Assembly: GCA_902790465.1 (NCBI GenBank)
Contig: CADASF010000005.1
Location: 148,622-212,621, forward strand
Direction: 5' to 3'
Origin: an uncultured bacterium
GTDB taxonomy: Bacteria; Vulcanimicrobiota; CADAWZ01
Length of the DNA: 64,000 nt
Shown: positions 23,390 through 54,781 of the stretch, in pieces
Position numbering within the stretch: the first letter of the stretch is position 1
How the letters are laid out: the number at the start of each line of letters is the position of its first letter
Program-made: the position numbers and the translations under genes
The notes under the pieces: model-generated
The model's input: the letters and a program-made list of their open reading frames with translations, nothing else
What the model was told of the DNA's origin: nothing
Databases searched by the model: none

Positions 23390-23495
23390 ACTTACACCGT
23401 AAAAACTCTTTTACCTGCTAAATAGATAAAAAAATAACTAACACAACGATTTGAAATAATATTATAAAAAATGTTGAAAAGAAGGACTTAAAAAA

Positions 23496-41043: not shown

Positions 41044-41103
41044 CCTGTAAGAAAGGGAAAATTTTGTAAAATAAGAAATAATATATAAAAAAATAAAAAA
41101 CAT
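41044..41103 (+). repeat. Duplicated ~55-nt upstream segment (copy 1) ahead of paralog gene 41210
   Basis: GAAAGGGAAAATTTTGTAAAATAAGAAATAATATATAAAAAAATAAAAAACATG is repeated at 42817..42870. Confidence 0.85.
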
Positions 41104-41209
41104 GGGGCTGTGAAAAAAGTATTTTTTTATATAATTTTAGTAAATTAACTCGTTGTGCTAGTTATTTTTATTTATTACTTATTAAAATGATATAGCTGAG
41201 TAGAGACAT

Positions 41210-41809
41210 ATGACTACAATACAAGAAGCAAAAATTGGTGATTATGTAAAATTTGGTAGTTATCCACAGAGTGCAAAAGGTATAGTTCGACCTATTGAAT
41301 GGTTGGTTTTATCAAAAGAAGAAAATAAAATGTTGTTAATATCTCGTTATGGTCTTGAAGCAAGGTATTTTATTAAAGCAAAGTGTTTTGACAGTAATTC
41401 AAATGATTGGAAAAATAGTGAAATTCGCAAGTGGTTGAATGGTGAGTTTTACAATAAAGCCTTTGATGAAAATGAGAAAACAAATATAAATCCTTTTGAT
41501 GGTGATAATTTATTTTTGTTGAGTAAGGAAGAAGTAGAAAAATATTTTGTTAATGCTAAAGAAAGAAAATGTAAAGCTACTAAACATGCTGTGAAAAATT
41601 GTGCTTTGATTGATAATGGTTGCAATTATTGGTGGCTTCCTAAGACTTTGGTTAATGATAATAATGGTTGTAGCTCTTGGTGGCTTCGCTCTCCTCGTCC
41701 TAATATTAGTAATATTGTCTATAATGTAGATAGTGTAGGTTCTATCGTATGTAGCCGTGTTGATGATAGTTATAATTTTGTGAGACCCGCTTTATGGATA
41801 AAACTATAG
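41210..41809 (+). CDS. Uncharacterised conserved-domain protein (GRYPQ...WWLRSP...RPALWI family), paralog 1
   Basis: It shares GSYPQ, EWLVLS, RKWLNGEFYN, WWLRSPRPN and VRPALWIKL with the C-terminal domain of the 42953 gene. It has no signal peptide. Confidence 0.55.
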   Translation: MTTIQEAKIGDYVKFGSYPQSAKGIVRPIEWLVLSKEENKMLLISRYGLEARYFIKAKCFDSNSNDWKNSEIRKWLNGEFYNKAFDENEKTNINPFDGDNLFLLSKEEVEKYFVNAKERKCKATKHAVKNCALIDNGCNYWWLPKTLVNDNNGCSSWWLRSPRPNISNIVYNVDSVGSIVCSRVDDSYNFVRPALWIKL

Positions 41810-41910
41810 TTCTTTTTGTGAATAAATAGATAATAGCGTGTGAAGAAAATCATTCTCCGCACGCTATTTTTTGATATTTACAATTTTTGTTTAGGGAGCA
41901 TTTAGGTAAT

Positions 41911-42237
41911 CTACAGTTGTGCCAAATAAAATTCGTGTTTCTCTTGTGGAATTTTTAAAGCATTCATTGCATTTTCTGCAGTTATATTCATAGTCTCCAT
42001 TAACGATCTTATGTTATTGATAACAGCCTCTGCCATTCCTTCAAATTTTCCCTGTTTCTGTGCTTGTTTAGCTTGCGTTTCCGCTTGTTTTCTTGCTTTT
42101 TCTTCAGCTTTCTGTGCTTGTTTAGCTTGCTTTTCGGCTTCTTTTCTTGCTTTCTCGATTTCTCTTATTTTAGCTTCTGCTTCTTTCATTGCTTCTTCTT
42201 TAGCTTTTTGTATTTCTTTCTCAAAAAAGTCGAGCAT
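41911..42237 (-). CDS. Small Lys/Glu/Ala/Gln-rich coiled-coil protein with internal tandem repeat
   Basis: The start was reassigned to MLDFFEKEIQ, which has an AAGGAGGG RBS (reverse strand). It contains a repeated KQAETQAKQAQK unit encoded by a ~45-nt tandem DNA repeat. Confidence 0.4.
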   Translation of the reverse strand: MLDFFEKEIQKAKEEAMKEAEAKIREIEKARKEAEKQAKQAQKAEEKARKQAETQAKQAQKQGKFEGMAEAVINNIRSLMETMNITAENAMNALKIPQEKHEFYLAQL

Positions 42238-42502
42238 AAATGTTTCTCCCTCCTTTGTTTCTTTTAAATATTTTACAGGTTCTCTCAATTCGCTCTTTCA
42301 AGTTCTGCTCCTGCACAAACTCTTCCTTTAATTATATGTGAATAAAGGTAAAGAATCAATAAAATTTATAATATTATTTCTAATAATTCAAAAGTCAAAA
42401 AATTGACTTGTGTTATGTAAATTTAACTCGTTGTGTTAGTTAATAAAAGTAAATAAAAATTTGCTCTAAACTATCCAATATATGCCTGTATACTGCCACT
42501 TT

Positions 42503-42672
42503 GTCATTGCGAGGCTTTAGCCGTGGCAATCTAAGCCTGTAAATTATAAATTTACTTAAAAATTGAGTCGATCGTCTGTATTTGGAATATTGTCCTCAAT
42601 CTACTTAATAAATTACTAAATTTAAATTAAGCGTTTGAGATTGCCACGGTCGCACAGCTCCCTCGCAATGAC
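42503..42672. other. Long-range inverted repeat / candidate structured ncRNA: two perfect 12-bp helices enclosing ~105 nt
   Basis: GTCATTGCGAGG (42503-14) pairs with CCTCGCAATGAC (42661-72). CCGTGGCAATCT (42521-32) pairs with AGATTGCCACGG (42638-49). A small internal loop lies between the helices and there is an AT-rich interior hairpin (ATTGAG...CTCAAT). No ORF lies inside. Confidence 0.4.
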
Positions 42673-42784
42673 ATCGCTTCTAAATAGTGGCTATTTTGGT
42701 TACGGAAATCAATTTTTGTTATTGATTTTGCTGTTAAATAATTTTCAAAAATACGATACAATGTTAATATTTTTTATTTTGTAG

Positions 42785-42870
42785 CTGTAAGCCAATGCGT
42801 GAACGATAACTTTTTAGAAAAGGGAAAATTTTGTAAAATAAGAAATAATATATAAAAAATAAAAAACATG
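42785..42870 (+). repeat. Duplicated upstream segment (copy 2, with a 26-nt insertion) ahead of paralog gene 42953
   Basis: CTGTAAG-[CCAATGCGTGAACGATAACTTTTTAG]-AAAAGGGAAAATTTTGTAAAATAAGAAATAATATATAAAAAATAAAAAACATG. Confidence 0.85.
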
Positions 42871-42940
42871 TTATGAGGTGTGTAAGTTATGAAATAACTT
42901 ACACACCTCATAACCCAGTTAATCTACCAAATTAACTGGG
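42870..42940 (+). promoter_or_regulatory. Two consecutive hairpins in the 5' leader of gene 42953: a perfect 21-bp-arm palindrome (42870-42914) and a 9-bp-arm hairpin (42915-42939) just upstream of the RBS
   Basis: GTTATGAGGTGTGTAAGTTAT-gaa-ATAACTTACACACCTCATAAC is followed by CCAGTTAAT-ctaccaa-ATTAACTGG. AGGAGA lies at 42943 and ATG at 42953. Confidence 0.6.
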
Positions 42941-42952
42941 TTAGGAGAGATC

Positions 42953-44059
42953 ATGACGAAGAAATTTTTATTTCTTACACTATGCCTTTTTATCCTCGGC
43001 ACATTCATTTCAGCCTGTGGCGGAAGTGGCAAAACAACTCCACCAGACAACTCTGCATATTACTATTTATTGGCTCAACAGAATAACAACAATCAGCAAG
43101 ATAATAATCAAGAACAAAATAATCAAGAACAAAATAATCAAGAACAAAATAACCAAGAACAAAATAATCAAGAACAAAATAACAACGAACAACAAGTCGA
43201 TCCAGCTTTGCCAAGTCTTGAAGTTAATCCAAAAGAAATTTATGTAGTGGTTGATGAGGAAGATAATATAGTAGTTACACTTGAAGGAAAAGTTGTAACA
43301 GAAGATGTTACTTACAAATCTGATGATGAATCGATCGCAACAGTTGATAAAGGAACAGTAAAGGGCTTAAGAGTTGGTACTACTAATATAACAGTATCTC
43401 TTGAAGGTGCAAACAGTGCAGTTTTTGAAGTAAATATTGTAGAAAATCCATTTAAAGAAGCCCAAAAAGGTGATGAAGTGGAATTTGGTCGTTATCCTCA
43501 GACCGCAGAAGGTGAAGTTCAACCTATAAAATGGCTTGTATTGTCAAGAGATGACGAAAATAAACAATTATTGGCAATTTCAGTTGATGGTCTTGATGCA
43601 CTTCGTTTTGATGATGATTCAGATGGTAGTACAACAAATGTTTGGGAAAAGAGTGTAATTCGTGGTTGGTTGAATGGCGATGGTTTTTATAATAGAGTTT
43701 TAGAAGATGAAACAGCAGTATTTACTGATGGTGAGAAAAGTTTAATAAAGCCAGTAGTTCTTGCAGATGTATATATGACAGAGCCAGATAATGTATTTTT
43801 GTTGAGTAAGAAAGAGGCAGAGGATTATTTTGCCGATGATTCTGCTCGAATGTGTAAAGCAACCGAATATGCAAAGGCAGATGGTGCTAGGATATCAACA
43901 TCTGGAAGTTATGCAGGTAATTGTTCTTGGTGGCTTCGTTCTCCTAGTCCTAATTTTACTAATCGTGTCTATTATGTTGTTGGTGATGGTGCTAATCTCT
44001 TCGACAATGTTGATAATACCAATAATTCAGTTCGGCCCGCTTTATGGATCAATCTTTAA
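42953..44059 (+). CDS. Lipoprotein with N/Q/E-rich linker, a bacterial Ig-like group 2 domain and a C-terminal uncharacterised conserved domain (paralog 2)
   Basis: It has a lipobox (FISACGGSG) and five (NNQEQ) repeats. A Big_2-like block (SIATVDKGTVKGLRVGTTNITV) is followed by a C-terminal FGRYPQ/KWLVLS/WWLRSPSPN/VRPALWINL domain. AGGAGA RBS. Confidence 0.6.
   Translation: MTKKFLFLTLCLFILGTFISACGGSGKTTPPDNSAYYYLLAQQNNNNQQDNNQEQNNQEQNNQEQNNQEQNNQEQNNNEQQVDPALPSLEVNPKEIYVVVDEEDNIVVTLEGKVVTEDVTYKSDDESIATVDKGTVKGLRVGTTNITVSLEGANSAVFEVNIVENPFKEAQKGDEVEFGRYPQTAEGEVQPIKWLVLSRDDENKQLLAISVDGLDALRFDDDSDGSTTNVWEKSVIRGWLNGDGFYNRVLEDETAVFTDGEKSLIKPVVLADVYMTEPDNVFLLSKKEAEDYFADDSARMCKATEYAKADGARISTSGSYAGNCSWWLRSPSPNFTNRVYYVVGDGANLFDNVDNTNNSVRPALWINL
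43104..43195 (+). repeat. Coding 15-nt tandem repeat (AATAATCAAGAACAA, about 5-6 copies) encoding (NNQEQ)n in the lipoprotein linker
   Basis: Direct reading of 43090-43200. Confidence 0.9.
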
Positions 44060-44097
44060 TCAAAAAAATATAGATTAGAACTTGAAGAAATGCAATA

Positions 44098-44137
44098 AAA
44101 AGACTCGGTACTAAATTAGCACCGAGTCTTTTGGTTT
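44098..44137 (+). terminator. Rho-independent terminator after the 42953 gene
   Basis: AGACTCGGT-actaaattagc-ACCGAGTCT is followed by TTTTGGTTT. Confidence 0.75.
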
Positions 44138-44179
44138 GAGGCTAAGGTCTGATTCCATATGGATCACCTCTTTTTCACT

Positions 44180-44761
44180 TTAGAATCCGAAAAAGCTACC
44201 TATTTTTTTGAAAATAGATTTTGCACCATTTACTACTTTGCCACCTACTTTTTCTATAACTCCGCTGGCTACTTTTCCTACAACTCCACCTGCTAAATTT
44301 CCAACTATACCACCGATAGGACCACCTATTGCTCCGCCAATTACTGTTCCTATGCCTTTACCTACTGCTGTTCCAGCTTCGCCACTGATTTTTCCTAATA
44401 TGCCTTTACTTTTTTCTGATTTTTTTGCTTCTTTTGTTTTGTCAGTATGTACTTCATTTGCTTTGTTTTCTTTAACCGCAGGAGCTATATTTTTGTTTGC
44501 TTCAAATTGTGGAAATGCTGGCATTTGTTGCATTGCTCCAACTCCATTTATTCTCCAAGCCTGTCCACCCATTTGTTGAATCATTTGCATTGTCTGCATT
44601 TGCATCATAATTTGTTGCATTTGTATCATCATTTGTTGCATTTGCATATACTGCATATTTCCAAAACCGTAGTTGTAATTGTAGTTCATTCCGTAATTGG
44701 AATTTCCATTATAAAAATTGCTGTAGTACATTACATTTGAATATATAATTTGGTTATTCAT
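44180..44761 (-). CDS. Hypothetical protein: N/Y-rich then M/Q-rich low-complexity N-terminus, with a C-terminal glycine-zipper segment
   Basis: It has a GGAGG RBS (reverse strand). NFYNGNSNYGMNYNYNYGFG is followed by MQYMQMQQMMIQMQQ. The C-terminal zipper reads GKGIGTVIGGAIGGPIGGIVGNLAGGVVGKV. Confidence 0.5.
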   Translation of the reverse strand: MNNQIIYSNVMYYSNFYNGNSNYGMNYNYNYGFGNMQYMQMQQMMIQMQQIMMQMQTMQMIQQMGGQAWRINGVGAMQQMPAFPQFEANKNIAPAVKENKANEVHTDKTKEAKKSEKSKGILGKISGEAGTAVGKGIGTVIGGAIGGPIGGIVGNLAGGVVGKVASGVIEKVGGKVVNGAKSIFKKIGSFFGF

Positions 44762-45212
44762 AATCTTAAACCTCCAAAAAAAATATTTATTTTCTTGTTT
44801 TTTATATCACTTAAAATTTCAATTAGTAAATAGGTTTAGTGAATAATTTATGCTCTATTTCACGATTGCAATAAATTAAATAATGATTTTTTTCACAAAT
44901 GTAATATTTAATAATTTTTATTATATTTTGATATATTTTTGAAATATTTATTAATAATTTTTCTGTAAATTCTATTTTTATTAAGTCAGAAATTAAACAA
45001 TTTGTCTGTGAAATAGAAATAATTATTTGATTACAGAATTAATTAAAAATAATGGATGATTCTCACAGAATGACAATAGATGCTCACAAAACAAAATATT
45101 TTTTTATTCCAAAAATTTATCAAGATATTTCTGGAAACATAAACAAAGGGGCAAGAAATAATAAATTGGTATGTAATCCAATGCGTGAAAGATGATAAAA
45201 AGACAACATAAA

Positions 45213-45253
45213 AAGGCTCGGTACTTAGTTAATAGCACCGAGCCTTTTAGTTT
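45213..45253. terminator. Bidirectional terminator downstream of the PKS-like gene (similar in sequence to the 44098 terminator)
   Basis: AAGGCTCGGT-acttagttaatagc-ACCGAGCCTT is followed by TTTAGTTT. On the reverse strand a T-run follows. Confidence 0.7.
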
Positions 45254-45263
45254 ACTCACACAT

Positions 45264-48200
45264 TTACATCATCTTTAATGCGAAGTTGGAGAATTTGTAG
45301 ATATTTCTGCCATCGACTGAAAGCCAGCCGTCACAGATAATTACTTTGTCATCATTTGATTTTGAAGTTACCCAAACTCTGACTGTTACCAAATCATCTT
45401 TTGGGATTACCTGTCCTCTATATGTCCACAAATGTTTACATTCACATAATGGAGAGATAAATCCCTCTGATTTCTCCGCTTCTTTACTCCAGAATTTTAT
45501 TGACATATACTTCATCAATGAAATCATTGATTCAAGACCGAGTGATCCAGGTATTACTGGATCCTGATAGAAATGAGCTTTGAAGAACCAATCTGAAGGT
45601 CTTACTTTCATAGTTCCTTCAATATAGCCCAATCCTTTTGGACCGCCATGTGGTGCAAAAACTGTTATATTATCTATCATTTTTAACATAGATTTTGGCA
45701 ATATCCTATGTTCTGGATATATAATATTTCGTTCTGAATCTTTGTCATTGCCTACAGGCGGAATCTTTGCGTCCAATATACCTATTTGATTTTTTAGTGC
45801 CTCTTTTGAGAAGAAGCCAAAATATGTCCAACCTTTATATACACTTCCTATTTCATCATAGACATCAAAGAAGTAATTTTGAATGACCATTCCTGCCGAT
45901 TTTGAGACTGTTTCAAGTTTTACATCTGTATGTAATATCTTTGTGTTTTTGTTTACAGGTCTTTCAAGATGACCATAACCACCTAAATTTCTAAATGACA
46001 GATCAAAATTTTCGGTAAGTGCAGAACCGACATAGGCAGCAAGCCAACCGCAAGGCTGAAGTGCAACTTCAAGAAGTACAGAAAATGGCATTAATGATGA
46101 AGAACTCTGTTCAAAATACCATTCATTACCATTCATATCATATTGAGCAGAGGCTGATGCAGGAGTTTTCATTACCCATTGTTCACCTGCTACTTTTACG
46201 ATTCTGTCAAGGAATTTATATGGATCGCCTGGTAATCTTGCGATTATTCTGTCTTTGTCAAATACTGCATATTTACTGCCAAATGCTTCTGAAGGATTGC
46301 CAATAGCAAATGCAGTTATCGAGGCATTGTCAAAAACTGGAGTTTGTGGAGTTTTGCCAACATTTTTAATATTTCGCCATATCTTTTCCAAGCGTTCTTT
46401 AGATGAACCTTTTAACTGAATTGACATATTCAGCATTTCGACAATAGGTTTTCCATCTGCAAACATCAAGGCATCTGCTATTGCATAAGGATATGGATTA
46501 TAGCCAATTTCTTTTATTGAGATTCTAAAAGATGATTTTTTAGTTGATTCTATGACTTGACCTCTACATTTTAGAGAGCTTGAAACTCCCTGTATTGGCT
46601 CCCAAACAGTGTCTTTAGCTGAATCAATCCAACCAGCTCTCATCAAGAAAATTCTGAGTGTGTGCATGCAACATTCATACATCAATGTACCTGGCATGAC
46701 ATTGTCATCTGAGAAGTGGCATGTCAAGAACCAGTCATCTGGATGGATATCGAGTTCAGATTCAATGCTTCCTATTCCAAATCTGCCACCCGTTGGATTT
46801 AGGTTAATAACCCTGTCGAGAAGTTTCATGTATTTATGTCTTGGTAATGTCAATGGGTCTTCACAGTCCATATAATCAAAAGACGATCCAAAACATGCAG
46901 AAATTTTGCCTTTTCTCAATTCGGCTATTTCGGTATCTGCATAAGATTCTTCATACATTGGGACAAATGGTTTAAAGCCGTCTTTTATCAGTCCTTTTTC
47001 AGGGCGTAAGTCAAGGGCTGTGTGGATAATTCCTTTGCCTTCGTCAAGTTGTTGTTGTGTGAAGAAGCCTGCACAGCCATTTGTCATTGACATCAATTTT
47101 TTAGTGCCGACAAAACTTTCAAAATTGAAGTAGAACAGCCAAACCGATCCTTGTGTAAAGAATCTTTCAATATTTATTTCATATCTTATCGTTTCACCGA
47201 CTTTTGGAAGGTGATCATGGAATTGAATCGAGGCATTTAACAATCTATAGACAGCAAGACCTTTTGTCTTTTTGTCAATACCCAACCAGCCAGATAAAAA
47301 TAGATCAGATTGACCCGCTTCAACAGCAACACAAGTTGGAATAATGCCATTGTCCAAATACCAAGCATTTTCTTTTATATCATGTTCTGTAACTGTTGAA
47401 CCTGATGTCAGAGAAAGTGGTTCACCAGAAACACTTAAGATCCTATCCGCAAGCATTAATGGCTCATCAGGAAGTCTTACTCTTGTTGGATAGCTATCTA
47501 TCTCCTCAAACATTTTACCCAAAACTTTACCAATAGACCCTGTGGCAAACTCCATGCATGCCTCTCTATCCATAAATATCTTTTTGTCGCTTGCGTTCTT
47601 ATCTCTGCGATCGATTTTGTCTCTGCTACTTGTTTGGTAATTGCCATCTACAAAGTTTTTCTCTTGGCTTGCGTTCTTATCTCTGCGATCGATTTCGTTT
47701 TGGCTAACTTTTTCATAACTGCCATATACATTATTTTCTTTTTGGCTCTCTTGCTTATTTCTGCGATCGACATTGCCAAGATATATATTTTGTGAAATTT
47801 CTGTTGGGCAATCCAAAACAAGGGAAATCAAATCTTGTGAGAAGTTCAAATATTCGCCATGAGCTTCTGCCGTCTTCTGTTCCATTTCAAATATTCTTTT
47901 TAGTACGCTATTTGCTGTTTCTGTAGTTTGGCTAATTTCAATTTGTGGCATTTTTTCTTTGCTCTCTTGTTTGTATATGCTACCTAATTCGTTTTGAGTT
48001 ACTTCTTTGTCTCTAAAATTTATAAAGTTTTCTCTATGCTCGTTGTTAATATTTTGTGATATTACAGGCTTACTTTCTTTTTCTTTACTTAATTTATTGT
48101 CTCTTTGCTCTATTGTTTTACTGGAATTTGTCTTTTTTGAATTGTATTCAGAACTTTTTTCACTAAAAGCTCTTTTTGATAGAGAAATTTTCATCAGATT

Positions 48201-51200
48201 TGATTTTTTAGTTTCTTTAAAATCTCTGTCAAAAAGATTCAATTTTTCAAAATCTATTCCATTTACAAAAAGAACAGCACACATATTTAAGAATGTATCT
48301 ATTTCAGAAAATCCAGCTTTTGTCGCATATACAGCAAGATGAGGTTTTTCTGACAAAATGGAATCTATCATTCTTGTACAAGAACAACTTGGACCGACTT
48401 CTATAAATACTCTTATTCCGTCTTTCCAAGCCTGTTCTATGACTGCAGGGAAATCTATTGTATAAGAAGCCTGGTTTAATATTGTGTCAGCTATATTGTC
48501 TGATGTTATATCATAACTTTTCTTTAATGCCGTACTGTAAAAAGTTATATTATTTGGATTTTCTGCAGGGAAGTAGTGAAGATCTCTGTATTTCTGAGCA
48601 ACAGGTTTTAAAACTTCACAATGAACAGAAGTTACACCTTCAATAGGAATTATCGTACATTTTAGTTCTTCTGCACATTTCTCTACTTCTTTTCTCTCTC
48701 CGCCAATAACACAATCTTCATAAGTATTTATTATAAGGAGATATACTCTGTCATATTTTTCTATGACTTTTTGAGCTTTCTTGTAATTACAAGCGATAAC
48801 AGCTGTAAGCCAATCGACTTTTTCATTTTCAGGTATATTCCAAACTTTTTTGGCGGAATTATATTCACCTGCTAAGTCATCTATAAAGAGAGATGATGAA
48901 TTTAATCTATCCATCATTTCATCTCTTGAATGCCAAATTCTAAGTGCTGTTATTCCTGCCATTTCTCCGAGAGAATAGCCAATAGAGGCATTTGGCTTTA
49001 TTCCCAAATTTGCCACACAATCAGAGGCAATAGATGACATAGCTGTTTGACCTTGAAGGAGTGCAGGGTGATTATTTGAAACATCATCTAAATTTTCTTT
49101 TGTCCAAAAATAATTTGGCAAAATTTGATCTTTCAATCTCAAATTTTCTTCATTTTCATTATACATGACATTTGGGAATCTTAGAGCAAGCTCTTTTCCC
49201 ATTCCTGCATAATGGTTGCCTGAACCTGGAAATACAAATGCTATTTTTCCTTTTTCTGCAAATTTTCCGTCATTGTATGTAAGACCTTCCGTGTGTTCAG
49301 GGAATGTATTTGCAATTTTCTTAAATTCTGCAAAGTCTTTTGCCAAAATACTTGCTCTGAATATATCTTTGTCAGTATCTTTTTCTCTATTTTTTTCAAG
49401 ATATAGTGCAGATTGTGAAAAAGTTAAATCTGTTTCTGACAAAAATTTTAATGCAGAATCTATTTTTTGTTTTAAATCTTCTTCATTTTTAGAGGCAAAG
49501 AAGAATATCTCTTTATTTTGGAAATTGTGTAGGTGTTCAGGCTCACAAGGTGGCTCTGAAATATCTATTTTTATGCCTCTATTTGTTATTGATGAAAAAG
49601 AGGTTGCAGAATCTGTTATTTTGCCTTCAATTCTGTTTGAAAGTCTATATGTTTTACTTATAGGCTCGAATCTGTCTTTTATGAAAAGGCATTTTTCAAC
49701 AAGTTCCAAAGCACCATTTTTCTCTTGGCTCTCTTTTTCGTCTCTGCGATCGACTTTGTCTAAGCTACTTGTTTGATAATTACCATTTACAAAGTTTTTC
49801 TCTTGGCTCTCTTTTTCGTCTCTTGGTGAGATTTTAGAAACATTGTCAATTACAGCATATATTTTGTTTTTATCTCTTACTGCGTCATCATATCTTTTTA
49901 AAACAAAACAAACAGATGTATCAAAGAATTTGTCATTTCTTTTTGACATCATATTTTTACAGAAAGTAAATCTGTCATCAGAGGCAATATCTGTACAACC
50001 TGCAATGACTACATCTGTTTCAAAATTTACAAGTGAGTCAAAAGCGAGTGATACTGCTTCTAAGCCTCCGTTTTCAGATTCAGAAACAGTGTGTGAGGTT
50101 TTGCCAAAGCCAAATTCTCTCGCTATTCTGCTTGCAGTTATACTACCCAATGCCCCCATTGTTCTATTTGCATTTAATGGCTCTGAAAAGACTTTGTCTC
50201 CAGTTCTCCATGATACATAGAAATCTGTTGTTGAAAAATCAAAATTGATTCCGATAAAAACTCCGCCTTTTGCATATTCTTCTTTTTTGATGTCAGCGTC
50301 AGACATTGCAGAAATTGCAGAAAGAAGCATTGCTTTTTGTTGTGGAAGTGATTCATCAAGCTCTTTTGGAGGAATTTTTATTTTTCCAAATGGTATTTGT
50401 GTATCTTCAAATGTTCTTTTTGAAGGATATTTTCCCTCGGCTCTCATTTTTTCAAATTCATAGGCATTATTTACATTGCCAACTCTCACATCAATTCCGA
50501 CTACAGCTACTTTCTTATCATTTTTTTGTGGATTGAGAGCTTTTTTATTTTCATAAAGTTCTTTTTTAAATTCTTCAATTATTACATGTGCATTTATTCC
50601 ACCAAAACCAAATGCACTTACAGCCACTCTTTTTGTTTTTGAATCCCATTTTTCAGCTTTTGTTGGAACAAAAAATGGAGAATTTTCTATATCTATTGAT
50701 GGTGTTGAATAATTTGCAATAGGTGGCAAAATGCCCTTTTGCATTGAAAGTAAAACCTTTACAAGTCCTGCACCACCTGCACCTGTCAAAAGGTGTCCTA
50801 TATTGGATTTTACACTACCAAGTGCAGATTTTTTGTTTTCTCTCTTACAATTAAATTCAGAAAATAGCTTGCATAGGCTTCCAAATTCAACTTTATCACC
50901 TGCAGGTGTTCCTGTTGCATGGCATTCAAATAAATCTATGTCAGAGGGGAGAAGATTTGCCTGTTCGTAAGCCTCTTTCATTGCTCTTAATTGACCCTCT
51001 TGCGAAGGCATTAAAAGGCTTCCTTCTCTGTCATTTGAAAGACCAACTGCTTTTATAACTCCGTATATTTTGTCTCCGTCTTTTATTGCATCTTCAACTC
51101 TTTTTAAACAGATGATTCCTGCACCTTCACCTGTAACAAGCCCTTTGCCTTTTTTGTCAAATGGGGCACATATTCCGTCTGTAGAAAGTGCTGATAATTG

Positions 51201-51872
51201 AGTAAATCCTATTGATGTGTACATGCAGTCAGGTCTTGAAACTCCACCTGCAAGCATTAGATCGGCTTTTCCTTCAACAAGGCGATCGCATGCGAGTTTT
51301 ACTGCATAGAGTGAAGAAGCACATGCTGCGTCAAGTGTGAATGATTCACCTTCAGCTCCTATTGTTTTTGCCAAAAATGAGGCTGTGTGTGAATTTACAA
51401 GTGAATTTATTGGATTTGTAGAAATATTTTTGCAATCAGATAAAGCCAAATCAAAAGATATTTGTTCTGATGTCTCCGTAGGAAGTGCGATACTTCCCAA
51501 AATAACTCCTACCTTGTCAGCTGATATTGATGATGAATTGCATTCTTTAAATGCTGATTTTCCTGCTATTGCTGTTATTTTAAATACTGGATCGAGATTG
51601 TCGTCTTCAATTCCATATTTAGAACATAATTTTTGTATTGTATCTTCAGAGATAAATGCTCCTATATCTGTAAATGCTTTGTTTGGTGTTTTTACTTCAG
51701 ATATTACCGAAGATGAATCAAGTATCCATCTATTTTTAGGTGCATGTTTAAATGCATATTTTCCATTTTCTATCATATCCCAAAAATCTTTGAGGTCTTC
51801 ACATTCTGGGAAAAGTCCACCAATTCCAACTATTGCTATGTCGTAACTACTCTTTTTCATATCTATTTCCAT
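45264..51872 (-). CDS. PUFA-synthase-like (PfaB/PfaC-type) polyketide megasynthase: KS - CLF - AT - FabA-like DH - FabA-like DH (2202 aa)
   Basis: The KS domain has DAACASS (active Cys ~184), HATGTPAGD and GHLLTGAG. The second KS-like domain lacks the Cys (SESENGG), marking it as a chain-length factor. The AT domain has GYSLGE. Two C-terminal FabA-type DH domains follow (HPDDWFLTCHF...GTLMYE; PSDWFFKAHF...GSLGLE). No DSL ACP motif, no KR and no ER are present. Confidence 0.8.
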   Translation of the reverse strand: MEIDMKKSSYDIAIVGIGGLFPECEDLKDFWDMIENGKYAFKHAPKNRWILDSSSVISEVKTPNKAFTDIGAFISEDTIQKLCSKYGIEDDNLDPVFKITAIAGKSAFKECNSSSISADKVGVILGSIALPTETSEQISFDLALSDCKNISTNPINSLVNSHTASFLAKTIGAEGESFTLDAACASSLYAVKLACDRLVEGKADLMLAGGVSRPDCMYTSIGFTQLSALSTDGICAPFDKKGKGLVTGEGAGIICLKRVEDAIKDGDKIYGVIKAVGLSNDREGSLLMPSQEGQLRAMKEAYEQANLLPSDIDLFECHATGTPAGDKVEFGSLCKLFSEFNCKRENKKSALGSVKSNIGHLLTGAGGAGLVKVLLSMQKGILPPIANYSTPSIDIENSPFFVPTKAEKWDSKTKRVAVSAFGFGGINAHVIIEEFKKELYENKKALNPQKNDKKVAVVGIDVRVGNVNNAYEFEKMRAEGKYPSKRTFEDTQIPFGKIKIPPKELDESLPQQKAMLLSAISAMSDADIKKEEYAKGGVFIGINFDFSTTDFYVSWRTGDKVFSEPLNANRTMGALGSITASRIAREFGFGKTSHTVSESENGGLEAVSLAFDSLVNFETDVVIAGCTDIASDDRFTFCKNMMSKRNDKFFDTSVCFVLKRYDDAVRDKNKIYAVIDNVSKISPRDEKESQEKNFVNGNYQTSSLDKVDRRDEKESQEKNGALELVEKCLFIKDRFEPISKTYRLSNRIEGKITDSATSFSSITNRGIKIDISEPPCEPEHLHNFQNKEIFFFASKNEEDLKQKIDSALKFLSETDLTFSQSALYLEKNREKDTDKDIFRASILAKDFAEFKKIANTFPEHTEGLTYNDGKFAEKGKIAFVFPGSGNHYAGMGKELALRFPNVMYNENEENLRLKDQILPNYFWTKENLDDVSNNHPALLQGQTAMSSIASDCVANLGIKPNASIGYSLGEMAGITALRIWHSRDEMMDRLNSSSLFIDDLAGEYNSAKKVWNIPENEKVDWLTAVIACNYKKAQKVIEKYDRVYLLIINTYEDCVIGGERKEVEKCAEELKCTIIPIEGVTSVHCEVLKPVAQKYRDLHYFPAENPNNITFYSTALKKSYDITSDNIADTILNQASYTIDFPAVIEQAWKDGIRVFIEVGPSCSCTRMIDSILSEKPHLAVYATKAGFSEIDTFLNMCAVLFVNGIDFEKLNLFDRDFKETKKSNLMKISLSKRAFSEKSSEYNSKKTNSSKTIEQRDNKLSKEKESKPVISQNINNEHRENFINFRDKEVTQNELGSIYKQESKEKMPQIEISQTTETANSVLKRIFEMEQKTAEAHGEYLNFSQDLISLVLDCPTEISQNIYLGNVDRRNKQESQKENNVYGSYEKVSQNEIDRRDKNASQEKNFVDGNYQTSSRDKIDRRDKNASDKKIFMDREACMEFATGSIGKVLGKMFEEIDSYPTRVRLPDEPLMLADRILSVSGEPLSLTSGSTVTEHDIKENAWYLDNGIIPTCVAVEAGQSDLFLSGWLGIDKKTKGLAVYRLLNASIQFHDHLPKVGETIRYEINIERFFTQGSVWLFYFNFESFVGTKKLMSMTNGCAGFFTQQQLDEGKGIIHTALDLRPEKGLIKDGFKPFVPMYEESYADTEIAELRKGKISACFGSSFDYMDCEDPLTLPRHKYMKLLDRVINLNPTGGRFGIGSIESELDIHPDDWFLTCHFSDDNVMPGTLMYECCMHTLRIFLMRAGWIDSAKDTVWEPIQGVSSSLKCRGQVIESTKKSSFRISIKEIGYNPYPYAIADALMFADGKPIVEMLNMSIQLKGSSKERLEKIWRNIKNVGKTPQTPVFDNASITAFAIGNPSEAFGSKYAVFDKDRIIARLPGDPYKFLDRIVKVAGEQWVMKTPASASAQYDMNGNEWYFEQSSSSLMPFSVLLEVALQPCGWLAAYVGSALTENFDLSFRNLGGYGHLERPVNKNTKILHTDVKLETVSKSAGMVIQNYFFDVYDEIGSVYKGWTYFGFFSKEALKNQIGILDAKIPPVGNDKDSERNIIYPEHRILPKSMLKMIDNITVFAPHGGPKGLGYIEGTMKVRPSDWFFKAHFYQDPVIPGSLGLESMISLMKYMSIKFWSKEAEKSEGFISPLCECKHLWTYRGQVIPKDDLVTVRVWVTSKSNDDKVIICDGWLSVDGRNIYKFSNFALKMM

Positions 51873-53905: not shown

Positions 53906-53934
53906 TTGACAAAATGAAGATACCGTTGTATAAT
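53906..53934 (+). promoter_or_regulatory. Consensus sigma70-type promoter of the tRNA operon (TTGACA - 17 nt - TATAAT, with TG immediately upstream of the -10)
   Basis: TTGACA lies at 53906-53911 and TATAAT at 53929-53934, with an exact 17-nt spacer. The predicted start is ~45 nt upstream of tRNA-Pro. Confidence 0.7.
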
Positions 53935-53984
53935 GTCCTCACTGTCAAGGAAGCAAACCGATACAGGATACGGCGGATAAGTTT

Positions 53985-54059
53985 CGGGGTGTAGCGCAGC
54001 TTGGCTAGCGCATCTGGTTTGGGACCAGGGGGTCGGAGGTTCGAATCCTCTCACCCCGA
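53985..54059 (+). tRNA. tRNA-Pro (anticodon TGG)
   Basis: Hand fold: acceptor CGGGGTG/CACCCCG, anticodon loop TTTGGGA, T-loop TTCGAAT. Confidence 0.8.
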
Positions 54060-54086
54060 CTTCAGTCTTAAAAGCCTGGAATCAAT

Positions 54087-54163
<77 letters not shown>

Positions 54164-54170
54164 TTAAAAT

Positions 54171-54245
54171 GGTGAGTGTAGCTCAATTGGTTAGAGCGCT
54201 GGTCTGTGGAACCAGAGGCTGTGGGTTCAAGTCCCACCATTCACC
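54171..54245 (+). tRNA. tRNA-His (anticodon GTG) with G-1
   Basis: Hand fold: G-1 plus acceptor GTGAGTG/CATTCAC, anticodon loop CTGTGGA, T-loop TTCAAGT. Confidence 0.8.
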
Positions 54246-54273
54246 CTTGACAAAATAAATAAAGTTTTTACAT

Positions 54274-54347
54274 GGGTCGTTAGCTCAGTTGGCTAGAGCA
54301 CCTGACTTTTAATCAGGGTGTCACAGGTTCGAGTCCTGCACGACCTA
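54274..54347 (+). tRNA. tRNA-Lys (anticodon TTT)
   Basis: Hand fold: anticodon stem CCTGA/TCAGG, loop CTTTTAA, acceptor GGGTCGT/ACGACCT. Confidence 0.75.
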
Positions 54348-54362
54348 TTTTTTTTGATAAGA

Positions 54363-54435
54363 GGGTCTTTAGCTCAGTTGGTAGAGCACCTGACTCTTAA
54401 TCAGGGTGTCGAGAGTTCGAGCCTCTCAAGACCCA
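54363..54435 (+). tRNA. tRNA-Lys (anticodon CTT)
   Basis: Hand fold: anticodon loop CTCTTAA, acceptor GGGTCTT/AAGACCC. Confidence 0.8.
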
Positions 54436-54444
54436 TTCTCCTTA

Positions 54445-54526
54445 GGGCGAGTGGCGGAATTGGCAGACGCGCTAGACTTAGGATCTAGTGGCCTTGGTCG
54501 TGGGGGTTCAAGTCCCTTCTCGCCCA
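54445..54526 (+). tRNA. tRNA-Leu (anticodon TAG), long variable arm
   Basis: Hand fold: acceptor GGGCGAG/CTCGCCC, anticodon stem CTAGA/TCTAG, loop CTTAGGA. Length 82 nt. Confidence 0.75.
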
Positions 54527-54547
54527 TAGTCCTAAACAAAATAATTT

Positions 54548-54620
54548 GCGGAAGTAGCTCAGCGGCTAGAGCATCGCCTTGCCAAGGCGGGGGTCGAGGG
54601 TCCGAATCCCTTCTTCCGCT
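54548..54620 (+). tRNA. tRNA-Gly (anticodon GCC), copy 1 (T-loop TCCGAAT variant)
   Basis: Hand fold: acceptor GCGGAAG/CTTCCGC, anticodon loop TTGCCAA. Confidence 0.75.
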
Positions 54621-54684
54621 CTCATAAAGCCCCTAAATATAACTAAAATCTTTCTGATTTTTATCATAACCCCAATAGTTGGGG

Positions 54685-54757
54685 GAGGGGAATTGCGGAA
54701 GTAGCTCAGCGGCTAGAGCATCGCCTTGCCAAGGCGGGGGTCGAGGGTTCGAATCCC
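54685..54757 (+). tRNA. tRNA-Gly (anticodon GCC), copy 2
   Basis: It is identical to copy 1 except for the canonical T-loop TTCGAAT. Confidence 0.8.
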
Positions 54758-54781
54758 TTCTTCCGCTTTTTTTATTTCTCA

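What the first reader, a model, noticed from the sequence alone, without database searches (positions are those of the whole stretch)
42870..42940. Perfect 21-bp-arm palindrome plus second hairpin immediately upstream of the RBS of lipoprotein gene 42953
The sequence GTTATGAGGTGTGTAAGTTAT-gaa-ATAACTTACACACCTCATAAC has 21 bp without a mismatch. It is followed directly by a second hairpin (CCAGTTAAT...ATTAACTGG), and then by AGGAGA and the ATG. A perfect palindrome of this length is far beyond chance. It is not followed by a U-tract, so it is not a classic terminator. It could be an operator for a dimeric regulator, an RNA thermometer/attenuator occluding the start region, or a cruciform-prone site. 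The paralogous gene at 41210 shares the upstream ~55-nt repeat but lacks this palindrome.
Basis: seen in the sequence. Interest (0 to 1): 0.55.

Follow-up and report, generated by a model that had tools for sequence, protein, structure and literature searches.

The report
Strain-specific double-hairpin insertion in lipoprotein leader
The perfect 21-bp-arm palindrome is real, but it is a young insertion found only in some strains, sitting in the untranslated leader of a surface-lipoprotein gene of an uncultured rumen bacterium, where it most likely acts as RNA structure that decides whether the ribosome-binding site is open, not as a regulator's binding site.

Summary
The palindrome lies at 42870-42914 (21-bp arms, loop GAA). 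The second hairpin has 13 perfect pairs (42911-42943) and shares 4 nt with the first.

Other rumen assemblies show that both hairpins are an insertion. One strain (L009) and a sister locus (L012/L013) have the same upstream region and gene without the hairpins. The window carries 62 extra bp flanked by an 8-bp direct repeat: L GTTATGAG and R GTTAGGAG. R contains the Shine-Dalgarno (SD) sequence.

The last 8 nt of the palindrome (M, CTCATAAC) can pair with either L or R, which gives two exclusive folds. In the window allele, L:M wins and the SD stays as accessible as without the insert. A natural variant (42910 A>C, three assemblies) makes M the exact complement of R. It is predicted to bury the SD, with an opening cost of about 12.5 versus about 6.5 kcal/mol.

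I found no other copy in the window or in three public collections, no Rfam match, and no regulator or transposase gene nearby. The structure is stable to 65 °C in prediction.

Best reading: an insertion-derived leader RNA module with allele-dependent SD masking. All functional claims are predictions. The operator, thermometer and terminator readings are not supported. Interest is modest.

The parts
42816..42870 (+). Promoter-like repeat, copy 2 (copy 1 is at 41050-41104, upstream of the DUF6273 paralogue). It holds the candidate promoters TTGTAA(42831-36)-N16-TAAAAA(42853-58) and TTTTG-TAAAAT (42834-39).
   Evidence: Searches show two copies in the window where none is expected by chance. It is 100% identical in L009 and L010 although their coding regions diverge. 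The TTTTGTAAAAT core recurs upstream of paralogues in L012 and L062. Promoter assignment is inference; the genome uses canonical sigma-70 promoters, for example at the tRNA cluster.
42870..42877 (+). L: GTTATGAG, the left copy of the 8-bp direct repeat and the outer part of the palindrome's left arm. In the RNA model it is the 'anti-anti-SD'.
   Evidence: In L009, identity with the window runs to 42877 and resumes at 42940, and the 8-mer aligns to both positions.
42870..42914 (+). Hairpin 1: the perfect palindrome, arms 42870-42890 and 42894-42914, loop GAA. Predicted -30.1 kcal/mol as RNA.
42878..42939 (+). The 62 bp that are absent from the empty allele (L009) and from the sister locus (L012/L013): inner palindrome X-GAA-X', segment M, and hairpin-2 core Y-CTACCAA-Y'.
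   Evidence: No similarity to anything else in the window above shuffled controls.
42907..42914 (+). M: CTCATAAC, the shared segment. It is the exact complement of L and a 7/8 complement of R (the anti-SD). Position 42910 is the A/C polymorphism.
   Evidence: Energies.
42911..42943 (+). Hairpin 2: 13 perfect pairs (42911-42923 / 42931-42943), loop CTACCAA. It can extend to 17 pairs (42907-42923 / 42931-42947), with one A.G mismatch in the window allele and none in the C allele.
   Evidence: -15.3 kcal/mol for 13 bp; -19.1 for the extended A allele; -25.7 for the extended C allele.
42940..42947 (+). R: GTTAGGAG, the right copy of the 8-bp direct repeat. It contains the Shine-Dalgarno sequence (AGGAGA, 42943-42948). 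Similarity to the sister locus begins exactly here.
   Evidence: the L012 alignment starts at 42940.
42953..44059 (+). Downstream gene: a 368-aa lipoprotein with a signal peptide and lipobox ...FISAC, a variable N/Q-rich 15-nt tandem repeat, a Big_2 domain and a C-terminal DUF6273 domain (C-type-lectin-like).
   Evidence: DUF6273 is described as C-lectin-like and as a target of diversity-generating retroelements (DGRs) in PMC10743442.

Best explanation
The palindrome and the abutting hairpin form one young insertion found only in some strains: 62 new bp plus a duplicated 8-mer. It landed on the Shine-Dalgarno (SD) region of a surface-lipoprotein gene, between the promoter-like repeat and the start codon, so it is transcribed as part of the 5' leader. 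It most likely acts in cis as RNA. The leader has three related 8-mers: L (GTTATGAG), M (CTCATAAC) and R (GTTAGGAG, which holds the SD). M can pair with L, completing the 21-bp stem and leaving the SD free. Or M can pair with R, extending hairpin 2 to 17 bp and burying the SD. In the window allele M matches L perfectly. The long stem therefore works as a lock on an otherwise SD-masking sequence, and predicted ribosome access equals that of the insertion-free leader. In the minority allele one base change (42910 A>C) makes M match R perfectly, and the SD is predicted to be sequestered. A perfect 21-bp dsRNA stem is also a plausible RNase III substrate or 5'-proximal stabiliser, so mRNA half-life may be affected as well. 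The perfection of the arms is best explained by recent templated origin or correction (template switching between inverted-repeat arms) rather than by selection on 21 separate pairs. What is shown: the anatomy, the insertion polymorphism, the alleles and the fold energies. What is inferred: transcription through the element, the effect on translation or stability, and the mutational mechanism.
For: Insertion: L009 is 100% identical to 42788-42877, then continues at 42940. The sister locus L012/L013 reads ...AAATTGTTAGGAGTTCTCATG with no hairpin, and its similarity starts at 42940. The flanking 8-mers match 7/8.

Leader location: only 13 nt separate hairpin 2 from the ATG, and no promoter-like site lies inside the element. 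The genome uses canonical sigma-70 promoters.

Competing folds:
- Window allele: fold A -40.5 versus fold B -36.3 kcal/mol.
- C allele: fold A -36.1 versus fold B -42.9 kcal/mol, with SD pairing probability 1.0.
- Cost to open SD through AUG: window 5.5-7.2, C allele 12.1-12.9, empty leaders 6.0-7.8 kcal/mol.

Polymorphism:
- The A allele is in 13 contigs from three projects, the C allele in 3 contigs and the empty allele in 1.
- L002 differs from the window by only 2 SNPs in 3 kb. One of them is 42910, the single position complementary to the one site where L and R differ.

Other support:
- Related paralogue leaders in Candidatus Xenobia MAGs also carry long perfect hairpins. L014 and L018 differ by a compensatory pair, and L062 has two abutting perfect hairpins.
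- Template switching is reported to homogenise and expand inverted-repeat arms (PMC13100816 abstract).
- Leader hairpins processed by RNase III control adhesin expression in Haemophilus (PMC12721329) and act in Correia elements (PMC2649163 abstract).
Against: - There are no expression data and no mapped transcription start. All energies are predictions.
- In the window allele the predicted effect on SD access is nil, so the element may be functionally neutral here.
- The C allele is always linked to 43123 T>C. That is compatible with a single mutation, so nothing shows repeated switching or selection.
- No covariation is available, because all hairpin-bearing sequences are nearly identical.
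- The empty allele rests on one 2.9x-coverage contig plus a rearranged sister locus.
- The source of the 62 bp is unknown, and the insert has no terminal inverted repeats.
Confidence: 0.5

Rival explanations
1. A neutral by-product. The hairpins are a mutational or selfish scar, such as a miniature insertion, a fold-back or template-switch event, or a transposon footprint. It happens to sit in the leader and has no effect on expression. The palindrome is perfect only because it is young.
For: Predicted SD accessibility in the window allele equals that of the empty leader. The element is dispensable: it is absent in L009 and L012/L013, whose genes are intact. There is no conservation beyond one near-clonal population. 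The same intergenic region has other insertions, such as the 42503-42677 inverted-repeat element that L009 lacks.
Against: Thirteen nucleotides from a start codon, a -30 kcal/mol stem together with an SD-complementary segment is unlikely to be entirely silent. One of only two SNPs that separate the two haplotypes over 3 kb hits the one position that flips the fold. The element is retained in 16 of 17 assemblies of the species, although long palindromes are deletion-prone (established knowledge).
Confidence: 0.27
2. A member of a mobile family of miniature palindromic elements (like MITE, REP, ERIC or Correia elements, or an IS200/IS605-derived palindrome-associated transposable element). It transposed into the SD and made an 8-bp target-site duplication. 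Any regulatory effect is secondary.
For: There is presence/absence polymorphism with a 7/8 flanking direct repeat; a match of at least 7/8 has a chance probability of about 4e-4. The insert has two stem-loops, like the ends of IS200/IS605 elements. The genome hosts other dispersed repeats (CATTGCGAGG units).
Against: There is one copy in 64 kb even with 3 mismatches allowed. The inner palindrome has no hits in 185,579 species genomes, in JGI metagenomes or in IMG/VR, and hairpin 2 has none in IMG/VR. The insert ends (GTGTGT... and ...AACTGG) are not inverted repeats. No transposase gene lies among the neighbours scanned. The rest of this genome could not be searched.
Confidence: 0.12
3. A DNA operator, that is, a binding site for a dimeric or tetrameric regulator. 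The motif GTTAT recurs four times as GTTAT-N11-GTTAT-N3-ATAAC-N11-ATAAC. The regulator would repress the lipoprotein gene just downstream of the promoter.
For: The dyad symmetry is perfect, the site lies between promoter and start codon, and GTTAT/ATAAC sub-repeats are visible in the sequence.
Against: The site is not conserved in the conspecific empty allele, the sister locus or the paralogue, all of which share the promoter. No other copy exists, so there is no regulon. No regulator gene is nearby. Arms of 21 bp far exceed normal half-sites (established knowledge). The C allele breaks the symmetry.
Confidence: 0.05
4. A minus-strand intrinsic terminator or insulator that stops antisense or read-through transcription coming back through the lipoprotein gene.
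For: The scan flags a 20-pair stem followed by CATGTTTTTTATTTTTT on the - strand. The L014 and L018 hairpins are likewise preceded by an A-run on the + strand.
Against: The T-run belongs to the older promoter repeat. It is present without a hairpin at the paralogue and in L009. A 3-nt spacer separates the stem from the T-run. The only convergent - strand gene (44180-44761) has its own bidirectional terminator at 44098-44132. Hairpin 2 is left unexplained.
Confidence: 0.04

Closest known systems
Miniature palindromic insertion elements that are co-transcribed and fold in mRNA (Neisseria Correia/CREE, enterobacterial ERIC/IRU, Stenotrophomonas SMAG, REP/BIME)
   Same: It is a small, hairpin-forming insertion next to a gene start, variable between strains and flanked by a short duplication. 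Once transcribed, its long stem can be an RNase III target or a stability determinant. Correia elements are reported to bind RNase III and to be either cleaved or protected (PMC2649163 abstract).
   Different: Those families are multi-copy and have defined terminal inverted repeats and target sites (TA for Correia and ERIC, from my own knowledge). Here only one copy is known, there are no terminal inverted repeats, the repeat is 8 bp, and the unit is only 62-70 bp.
SD / anti-SD / anti-anti-SD leader switches (riboswitch expression platforms, translational attenuators, RNA thermometers)
   Same: Three segments compete. One masks the SD and another sequesters the masker, giving two mutually exclusive folds a few kcal/mol apart.
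   Different: There is no aptamer, no leader peptide with its own ribosome-binding site, and no thermolabile stem: the structure is stable to 65 °C in prediction. Rfam has no match. The only 'input' seen is a heritable base change, not a signal.
RNase III-processed 5'-UTR hairpin of Haemophilus influenzae hmw1A (PMC12721329)
   Same: A long hairpin lies in the leader of a variable surface-protein gene, and the leader structure interacts with a mutational hotspot to set expression.
   Different: The hmw hairpin is built from a heptanucleotide repeat tract, and its variation is in repeat number. Here the stem is a unique perfect palindrome and the variation is a point change plus an indel. RNase III action is untested.
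Quasipalindrome-associated template-switch mutation and inverted-repeat expansion
   Same: The A/C polymorphism converts M from the exact complement of one partner arm to the exact complement of the other. Also, the outer 8 bp of the right arm are an inverted copy of pre-existing flanking sequence. Both are the signature outcomes of arm homogenisation and arm expansion (PMC7202029 and PMC13100816 abstracts).
   Different: Those studies describe a mutational process, not a genetic element. Here it would explain the perfection of the palindrome and the SNP, but not the origin of the inner 54 nt.
5'-terminal stabilising stem-loops (E. coli ompA leader, Bacillus ermC/aprE leaders; from my own knowledge)
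   Same: A strong stem lies near the predicted 5' end of an mRNA for an envelope protein.
   Different: Stabilisers must lie within a few nucleotides of the 5' end. Here the start site is unknown: the two candidate promoters put the stem about 5 or about 24 nt from the end.

Membership tests
Intrinsic (Rho-independent) terminator | Stem-loop immediately followed by a U-tract on the transcribed strand | tested here: not met
   On the + strand the stem is followed by CCAGTTAAT. On the - strand a T-run follows after a 3-nt spacer, but that run pre-dates the hairpin.
Intrinsic (Rho-independent) terminator | Lies downstream of a gene on the same strand that needs termination | tested here: not met
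   On the + strand it lies upstream of the start codon. The nearest upstream + gene (41210-41809) has its own hairpin plus T-run at about 41838-41875. The convergent - gene has its terminator at 44098-44132.
Palindromic operator of a dimeric transcription factor | Conserved at orthologous or paralogous promoters | tested here: not met
   Absent in L009, in L012/L013 and at the paralogue, although all share the promoter-like repeat.
Palindromic operator of a dimeric transcription factor | Further copies in the genome (a regulon), or a cognate regulator gene nearby | tested here: not met
   No other copy in 64 kb with up to 3 mismatches. None in three collections. The neighbours are glgB, DUF6273, a coiled-coil protein, a PKS, a transporter, a nucleotidase, trigger factor and ClpP. 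The rest of the genome was not available.
RNA thermometer | SD or AUG paired in a weak, imperfect stem that melts between about 30 and 42 °C | tested here: not met
   In the window allele the SD is not in the main stems. Hairpin 1 is -30.1 kcal/mol, and the fold and the A/C difference persist from 25 to 65 °C in prediction.
Known cis-regulatory RNA family (riboswitch, leader, sRNA) | Match to a curated covariance model | tested here: not met
   Only tRNAs pass gathering thresholds in the window. In E-value mode the region gives only sub-threshold generic hairpin hits to miRNA precursor models.
MITE / REP / ERIC / Correia-type miniature insertion element | Presence/absence polymorphism with flanking target-site duplication | tested here: met
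   L009 compared with the window: 62 bp plus the duplicated 8-mer GTTAKGAG, matching 7/8.
MITE / REP / ERIC / Correia-type miniature insertion element | Multiple dispersed copies | tested here: inconclusive
   One copy in 64 kb. No hits in genome contigs, metagenome contigs or viral contigs. But this species is not in those collections, and the rest of its genome could not be scanned.
MITE / REP / ERIC / Correia-type miniature insertion element | Terminal inverted repeats at the element ends | tested here: not met
   The insert begins GTGTGTAAGTTAT and ends AAATTAACTGG. The ends are not complementary. The palindromes are internal.
IS200/IS605-derived palindrome-associated element / REP mobilised by a Y1 transposase | Subterminal hairpins at both ends, insertion without target duplication, Y1 transposase in the genome | tested here: inconclusive
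   Two hairpins are present, but an 8-bp direct repeat flanks the insert, which is not expected for this family. No transposase gene was seen in the ORFs scanned. The whole genome was not available.
SD / anti-SD / anti-anti-SD translational switch | A segment complementary to the SD, a competitor for that segment, and two exclusive folds of comparable energy | tested here: met
   M pairs with R at 7/8 positions (8/8 in the C allele) and with L at 8/8. Fold A versus fold B is -40.5/-36.3 kcal/mol in the window and -36.1/-42.9 in the C allele. All of this is computational.
SD / anti-SD / anti-anti-SD translational switch | A physiological trigger (ligand, temperature, ribosome stalling or trans factor) that shifts the equilibrium | not testable with these tools
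   No trigger was identified. The only shift seen is genetic (42910 A>C). A 20-codon ORF from 42873 crosses the hairpins but has no SD (read).
RNase III substrate | About two turns (20 bp or more) of uninterrupted dsRNA | tested here: met
   Hairpin 1 has 21 uninterrupted Watson-Crick pairs. The length criterion comes from established knowledge. Cleavage itself is not testable here.
5'-terminal mRNA stabiliser hairpin | Stem begins within a few nucleotides of the transcript 5' end | not testable with these tools
   The start site is unknown. The candidate promoter TTGTAA-N16-TAAAAA puts it about 5 nt upstream of the stem, and the candidate TAAAAT (42834-39) about 24 nt upstream (inference).
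Integron attC site | Imperfect palindrome with RYYYAAC / GTTRRRY core sites and extrahelical bases, next to an integron integrase or cassette array | tested here: not met
   M and R (TCCTAAC / GTTAGGA in the C allele) match the cores at 6 of 7 positions each. But the stem is perfect with no extrahelical bases, the unit is only 41 nt, there is no integrase or cassette context, and R is simply the SD. The core consensus is from my own knowledge.

The most novel reading that the evidence does not exclude
The L-M-R arrangement is a heritable translational toggle. M is shared between two hairpins whose partner arms differ at one base (T in L, G in R). Template-switch 'correction' during replication can rewrite M to match either partner. 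That would flip the leader between an SD-open state (M = CTCATAAC) and an SD-masked state (M = CTCCTAAC) at a rate far above ordinary point mutation. This would be a phase-variation mechanism for a surface lectin-like lipoprotein that needs no repeat tract, invertase or methylase.
Probability: 0.08. Interest if true: 0.7.

Novelty: new member of a known kind. Interest (0 to 1): 0.33.

Why it matters
If the prediction holds, this is a clean natural example of how a small hairpin insertion next to a ribosome-binding site is made harmless. A longer stem locks up the SD-complementary piece, and one base change can then switch a surface protein from translatable to masked. It also comes from a lineage (rumen relatives of Candidatus Xenobia, Eremiobacterota by my recollection) in which nothing is known about gene regulation. 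It shows that very long perfect palindromes in such genomes can be young, templated structures rather than protein-binding sites. Practically, it warns against reading perfect dyad symmetry as an operator without checking population variation. It is a single-locus curiosity and does not resolve any open question.

Tried and rejected
- **Other copies.** The 21-mer, the 13-mer core and hairpin 2 were searched in the window with mismatches allowed. Only the element itself or chance-level matches were found.
- **Public collections.** The inner palindrome GTGTAAGTTATNNNATAACTTACAC had no hits in genome contigs, metagenome contigs or viral contigs. Hairpin 2 had no hits in viral contigs. The 17-nt half-site gave 11 viral hits, all non-palindromic and consistent with chance 17-mer matches. 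The promoter-repeat 32-mer had no hits in the metagenome collection. The species itself is evidently not in those collections.
- **Known RNA families.** Rfam gave nothing in either gathering or E-value mode.
- **Phages and plasmids.** blastn against both gave nothing meaningful.
- **Origin of the insert from the nearby 'repeat B' motif (AACTCGTTGTGYTAGTTA).** There is a resemblance by eye, but local alignment of the insert against the window scores no better than shuffled queries. Rejected.
- **DGR activity on the DUF6273 gene as context.** The window has no template-repeat copy of the 3' end of either DUF6273 gene, and no convincing reverse-transcriptase motif: the four [YF]xDD matches lie in the lipoprotein, the PKS and two other ORFs. 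The population SNPs are not adenine-specific.
- **More alleles through neighbouring genes.** Look-ups of the 193-aa protein, the paralogue and cluster member P0121 added one more C-type contig and several A-type contigs, but no new allele class. A 78%-identical homologue of the 193-aa protein (L126) sits in a rearranged locus without the lipoprotein. P0126 (L127) is unrelated in context.
- **Recurrent switching.** The C allele is always linked to 43123 T>C, so one origin suffices.
- **Clustered SNPs in the L007 terminator.** They sit at a contig end inside a hairpin and were set aside as a probable assembly artefact.
Full report
**1. The observation**

The sequence at 42870-42914 is a perfect inverted repeat: GTTATGAGGTGTGTAAGTTAT, loop GAA, then ATAACTTACACACCTCATAAC.
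- The 21-mer matches nothing else in the window even with three mismatches; 0.01 matches are expected by chance.
- I scanned the window for perfect hairpins with arms of at least 11 nt and found 15, against 1.3 expected in first-order Markov simulations, where the longest arm was 14 nt.
- Nearly all the others are AAAA-stem-TTTT terminators between genes. This one is the longest and is not of that type.
- As RNA, 42860-42975 folds at -45.9 kcal/mol (z = -9.8). As DNA, 42860-42950 folds at -27.7 kcal/mol (z = -9.5).
That is 13 perfect pairs, and its first four bases are the last four of the palindrome.
- AGGAGA (42943-42948) and the ATG (42953) follow. The repeat of about 55 nt shared with the paralogue's upstream region is real (41050-41104 versus 42816-42870).

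**2. Organism and gene**
- The same locus occurs in many cattle-rumen metagenome assemblies.
- The nearest species-representative genomes that encode relatives of the lipoprotein are 'Candidatus Xenobia bacterium ruminal_MAG_271' and 'uncultured bacterium RUG13696', at only 43-62% identity. The species itself is therefore not in that collection.
- The genome has about 31% G+C and uses canonical sigma-70 promoters, for example TTGACA-N17-TATAAT before the tRNA cluster.
- The gene after the hairpins encodes a 368-aa lipoprotein with a lipobox, an N/Q-rich tandem repeat, a Big_2 domain and a C-terminal DUF6273 domain.
- DUF6273 is described as C-type-lectin-like and as a target domain of diversity-generating retroelements (DGRs) in phage receptor-binding proteins (PMC10743442).
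- Homologues are mosaic at the C-terminus and vary in repeat number, which fits a variable surface protein.
- The neighbours are glgB, a DUF6273 paralogue, a small coiled-coil gene, an unknown 193-aa gene and a PfaA-like polyketide synthase. No regulator or transposase gene lies within the genes scanned.

**3. The hairpins are an insertion**

I collected the upstream region from every assembly I could reach through exact-protein look-ups. Four states exist:
- (a) The window sequence, in 13 distinct contigs from three sequencing projects.
- (b) The same with one change, 42910 A>C, in three contigs (L002/L103, L125, L010).
- (c) L009. It is 100% identical to 42788-42877 and then continues at 42940, reading ...AAAAACATGTTATGAG|AGCTCATG.
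- (d) The sister locus L012/L013, with a 64%-identical protein and the same neighbouring genes in a different order. It reads ...AAATAAATAAATTGTTAGGAGTTCTCATG. Its blastn similarity to the window begins exactly at 42940.

The window therefore carries 62 extra base pairs (42878-42939) flanked by an 8-bp direct repeat: L = GTTATGAG (42870-42877) and R = GTTAGGAG (42940-42947). The two copies match at 7 of 8 positions, which has a chance probability of about 4e-4.

R is the ancestral Shine-Dalgarno (SD) region and stays attached to the gene. L stays attached to the promoter-like repeat.

I cannot tell whether L009 never had the insert or lost it by slippage between L and R; both histories need the same number of steps. 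L009 is also a 2.9x-coverage contig. The sister locus independently shows that the hairpin-free state is the older one.

**4. Three-part anatomy and two folds**

The last eight bases of the palindrome, M = CTCATAAC (42907-42914), are the reverse complement of L, and therefore nearly the reverse complement of R.

M can pair leftwards with L, completing the 21-bp stem. Or it can pair rightwards with R, extending hairpin 2 from 9/13 to 17 pairs and covering GGAG.

| Allele | Fold A: 21 bp + 9 bp, SD free (kcal/mol) | Fold B: 13 bp + 17 bp, SD paired (kcal/mol) |
|---|---|---|
| Window (A) | -40.5 | -36.3 |
| C allele (42910 A>C) | -36.1 | -42.9 |

In the C allele the pairing probability of the first three SD bases is 1.0.

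The ensemble cost of opening the 17 nt from GUUAGGAG through AUGA, for two assumed start sites, is:
- window allele: 5.5-7.2 kcal/mol
- C allele: 12.1-12.9 kcal/mol
- insertion-free leaders: 6.0-7.8 kcal/mol

In the window allele the long palindrome therefore leaves ribosome access unchanged, because it locks away a sequence that would otherwise mask the SD. In the minority allele the mask is predicted to close. The difference persists from 25 to 65 °C, so this is not a thermosensor.

**5. The polymorphism**
- L and R differ at one position (T at 42874, G at 42944). The A/C polymorphism is at 42910, exactly the base of M that faces that position. With A, M is the perfect complement of L; with C, of R.
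- The population is almost clonal. L002 differs from the window at only two sites in 42292-45300: 42910 and 43123. The chance that one of two random substitutions in 3 kb is this particular change is about 2e-4.
- That points to either a mutational hotspot or selection.
- Quasipalindrome 'correction' by replication template switching is a known process that makes one arm match its partner and can extend arms into flanking sequence (abstracts of PMC7202029 and PMC13100816). It would explain the SNP, the flawless 21 pairs, and the fact that the outer eight pairs use pre-existing flanking sequence.
- All three C-type contigs also carry 43123 T>C. One mutational event is enough, so I have no evidence for repeated switching.

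**6. Is it transcribed?**
- Hairpin 2 ends 13 nt (9 nt for the 13-pair form) before the ATG, and no promoter-like site lies inside the element. The promoter must therefore be upstream, and the hairpins must be in the leader.
- The shared repeat holds two candidates: TTGTAA (42831-36)-N16-TAAAAA (42853-58), with a start near 42865, and TTTTG-TAAAAT (42834-39), with a start near 42846.
- The TTTTGTAAAAT core recurs before paralogues in L012 and L062.
- These assignments are inference. No transcript data were available.

**7. Related loci**

Paralogues in the Xenobia MAGs also have long perfect hairpins in their upstream regions:
- L014 has 17 pairs and L018 has 16. Both start at a conserved CATGTGCGGA that L015 has without a hairpin, and they differ from each other by a compensatory G-C/A-T exchange.
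- L062 has two abutting perfect hairpins that share two bases.

Their sequences are unrelated to the window's element. This suggests that hairpin growth in leaders or intergenic regions recurs in this lineage. It does not define a family.

**8. Alternatives**
- **Operator:** fails on conservation, copy number and context (section 3).
- **Terminator:** there is no U-tract on the + strand. On the - strand the T-run is part of the older promoter repeat, and the only convergent - strand gene has its own terminator.
- **Known RNA family:** none.
- **Mobile miniature element:** the target-duplication-like repeat fits. But there are no terminal inverted repeats and no second copy anywhere I could search. 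I could not search the rest of this genome.
- **Neutral scar:** cannot be excluded. It is the main rival, because the predicted effect on SD access in the window allele is nil.

**9. Verdict**

The feature is real and far beyond chance. It is best described as a young, strain-variable, insertion-derived double stem-loop in the 5' leader of a variable surface-lipoprotein gene.

Its most likely mode of action is RNA structure: a long stem that holds an anti-SD segment away from the SD. A natural single-base variant is predicted to flip the leader to the masked state. A possible added effect on mRNA processing or stability comes from the 21 uninterrupted pairs, which meet the length requirement for RNase III (established knowledge). 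Comparable leader hairpins are known in Haemophilus hmw1A (PMC12721329) and in Correia elements (PMC2649163 abstract).

Everything functional is prediction. It is a new example of known kinds of things and is of modest interest. The only reading that would make it remarkable is a template-switch-driven heritable toggle, which current data allow but do not support.

Noticed in passing
window 42503-42677: An inverted-repeat unit of about 175 bp. Its two ends are inverted copies of a GTCATTGCGAGG...GTGGCAATCT stem-loop module (42503-42532 on + and 42638-42672 on -). Three other assemblies break their contigs at 42646, inside it. L009 lacks it. CATTGCGAGG units also occur in the related MAG loci L018, L019 and L020, so it looks like a dispersed, MITE-like repeat of this lineage.
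   Followed up: partly
window 41050-41104 and 42816-42870; L006: The promoter-like repeat of about 55 nt precedes both DUF6273 genes. Contig L006 joins the left flank of copy 1 directly to the palindrome and lipoprotein gene, so 1.77 kb including the paralogue is missing. This is either a deletion by recombination between the two repeats or an assembly collapse.
   Followed up: partly
window 41911-42288 (- strand): A small lysine/glutamate/alanine-rich coiled-coil gene contains 42-54-nt tandem repeats (42055-42198). Its length varies between assemblies (80, 92, 104, 108, 110, 125 and 164 aa), which indicates repeat-number variation.
   Followed up: no
window 43073-43192: A 15-nt tandem repeat (AATAATCAAGAACAA, encoding NNQEQ) lies in the lipoprotein linker. 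Copy number differs between strains: 368, 363 and 355/356-aa proteins, and L109 lacks exactly one unit (43138-43152).
   Followed up: partly
window 44098-44132 and 45211-45248: Two bidirectional terminator hairpins are paralogous and differ by a compensatory pair: AAAAGACTCGGT/ACCGAGTCTTTT versus AAAAGGCTCGGT/ACCGAGCCTTTT. They follow the 193-aa gene and the PKS gene respectively.
   Followed up: no
window 41150-41164 (+), 42428-42442 (+), 23435-23449 (-); L012 about 2890: The 15-mer TCGTTGTGYTAGTTA ('repeat B') occurs three times in the window, always in intergenic or leader DNA. A related CAACGAGTTAACTA lies upstream of the sister lipoprotein gene. It may be a regulatory site and is a better operator candidate than the palindrome.
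   Followed up: no
L014 2866-2916, L018 2907-2952, L015 2448-2457; window 41838-41875: The perfect 16-17-bp hairpins upstream of paralogues in ruminal_MAG_271 begin at a conserved CATGTGCGGA, which RUG13696 (L015) has without a hairpin. L014 and L018 differ by a compensatory G-C/A-T pair. The window's terminator after the paralogue contains a similar GTGCGGAGAA arm.
   Followed up: partly
L062 about 2893-2960: Two abutting perfect palindromes lie upstream of a lipoprotein paralogue: 17-bp arms with loop TAT, then a 32-bp spacerless palindrome GCCCTCTGCTTTTTTATAAAAAAGCAGAGGGC. They share 2 nt. The architecture matches the window's pair, but the sequence is unrelated.
   Followed up: no
L012/L013 versus window 41911-44761; L126: Local gene order is rearranged between close relatives. 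In L012 the homologues of the 193-aa and coiled-coil genes have swapped sides around the lipoprotein gene. In L126 (91% identical PKS) the 193-aa gene's terminator is followed by the homologue of window 59334-60279, and the lipoprotein region is absent there.
   Followed up: partly
window 42873-42935 and 42868-42876: Small ORFs lie in the leader: ATG AGG ... TAA (20 codons) runs through both hairpins, and ATG TTA TGA (2 codons) overlaps L. Neither has a Shine-Dalgarno sequence, so they are probably meaningless.
   Followed up: no
window 53985-54767 and about 53915-53945: A cluster of eight tRNA genes is preceded by a textbook TTGACA-N17-TATAAT promoter. This is a useful reference for promoter prediction in this uncultured lineage.
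   Followed up: no
window 45264-51872 (- strand): A 2202-aa PfaA-like polyketide / polyunsaturated fatty-acid synthase (two KS domains, an AT domain, FabA-like dehydratases). It has internal low-complexity repeats (DRRDEKESQEKN-like), and its length differs between assemblies (2198 versus 2202 aa).
   Followed up: no
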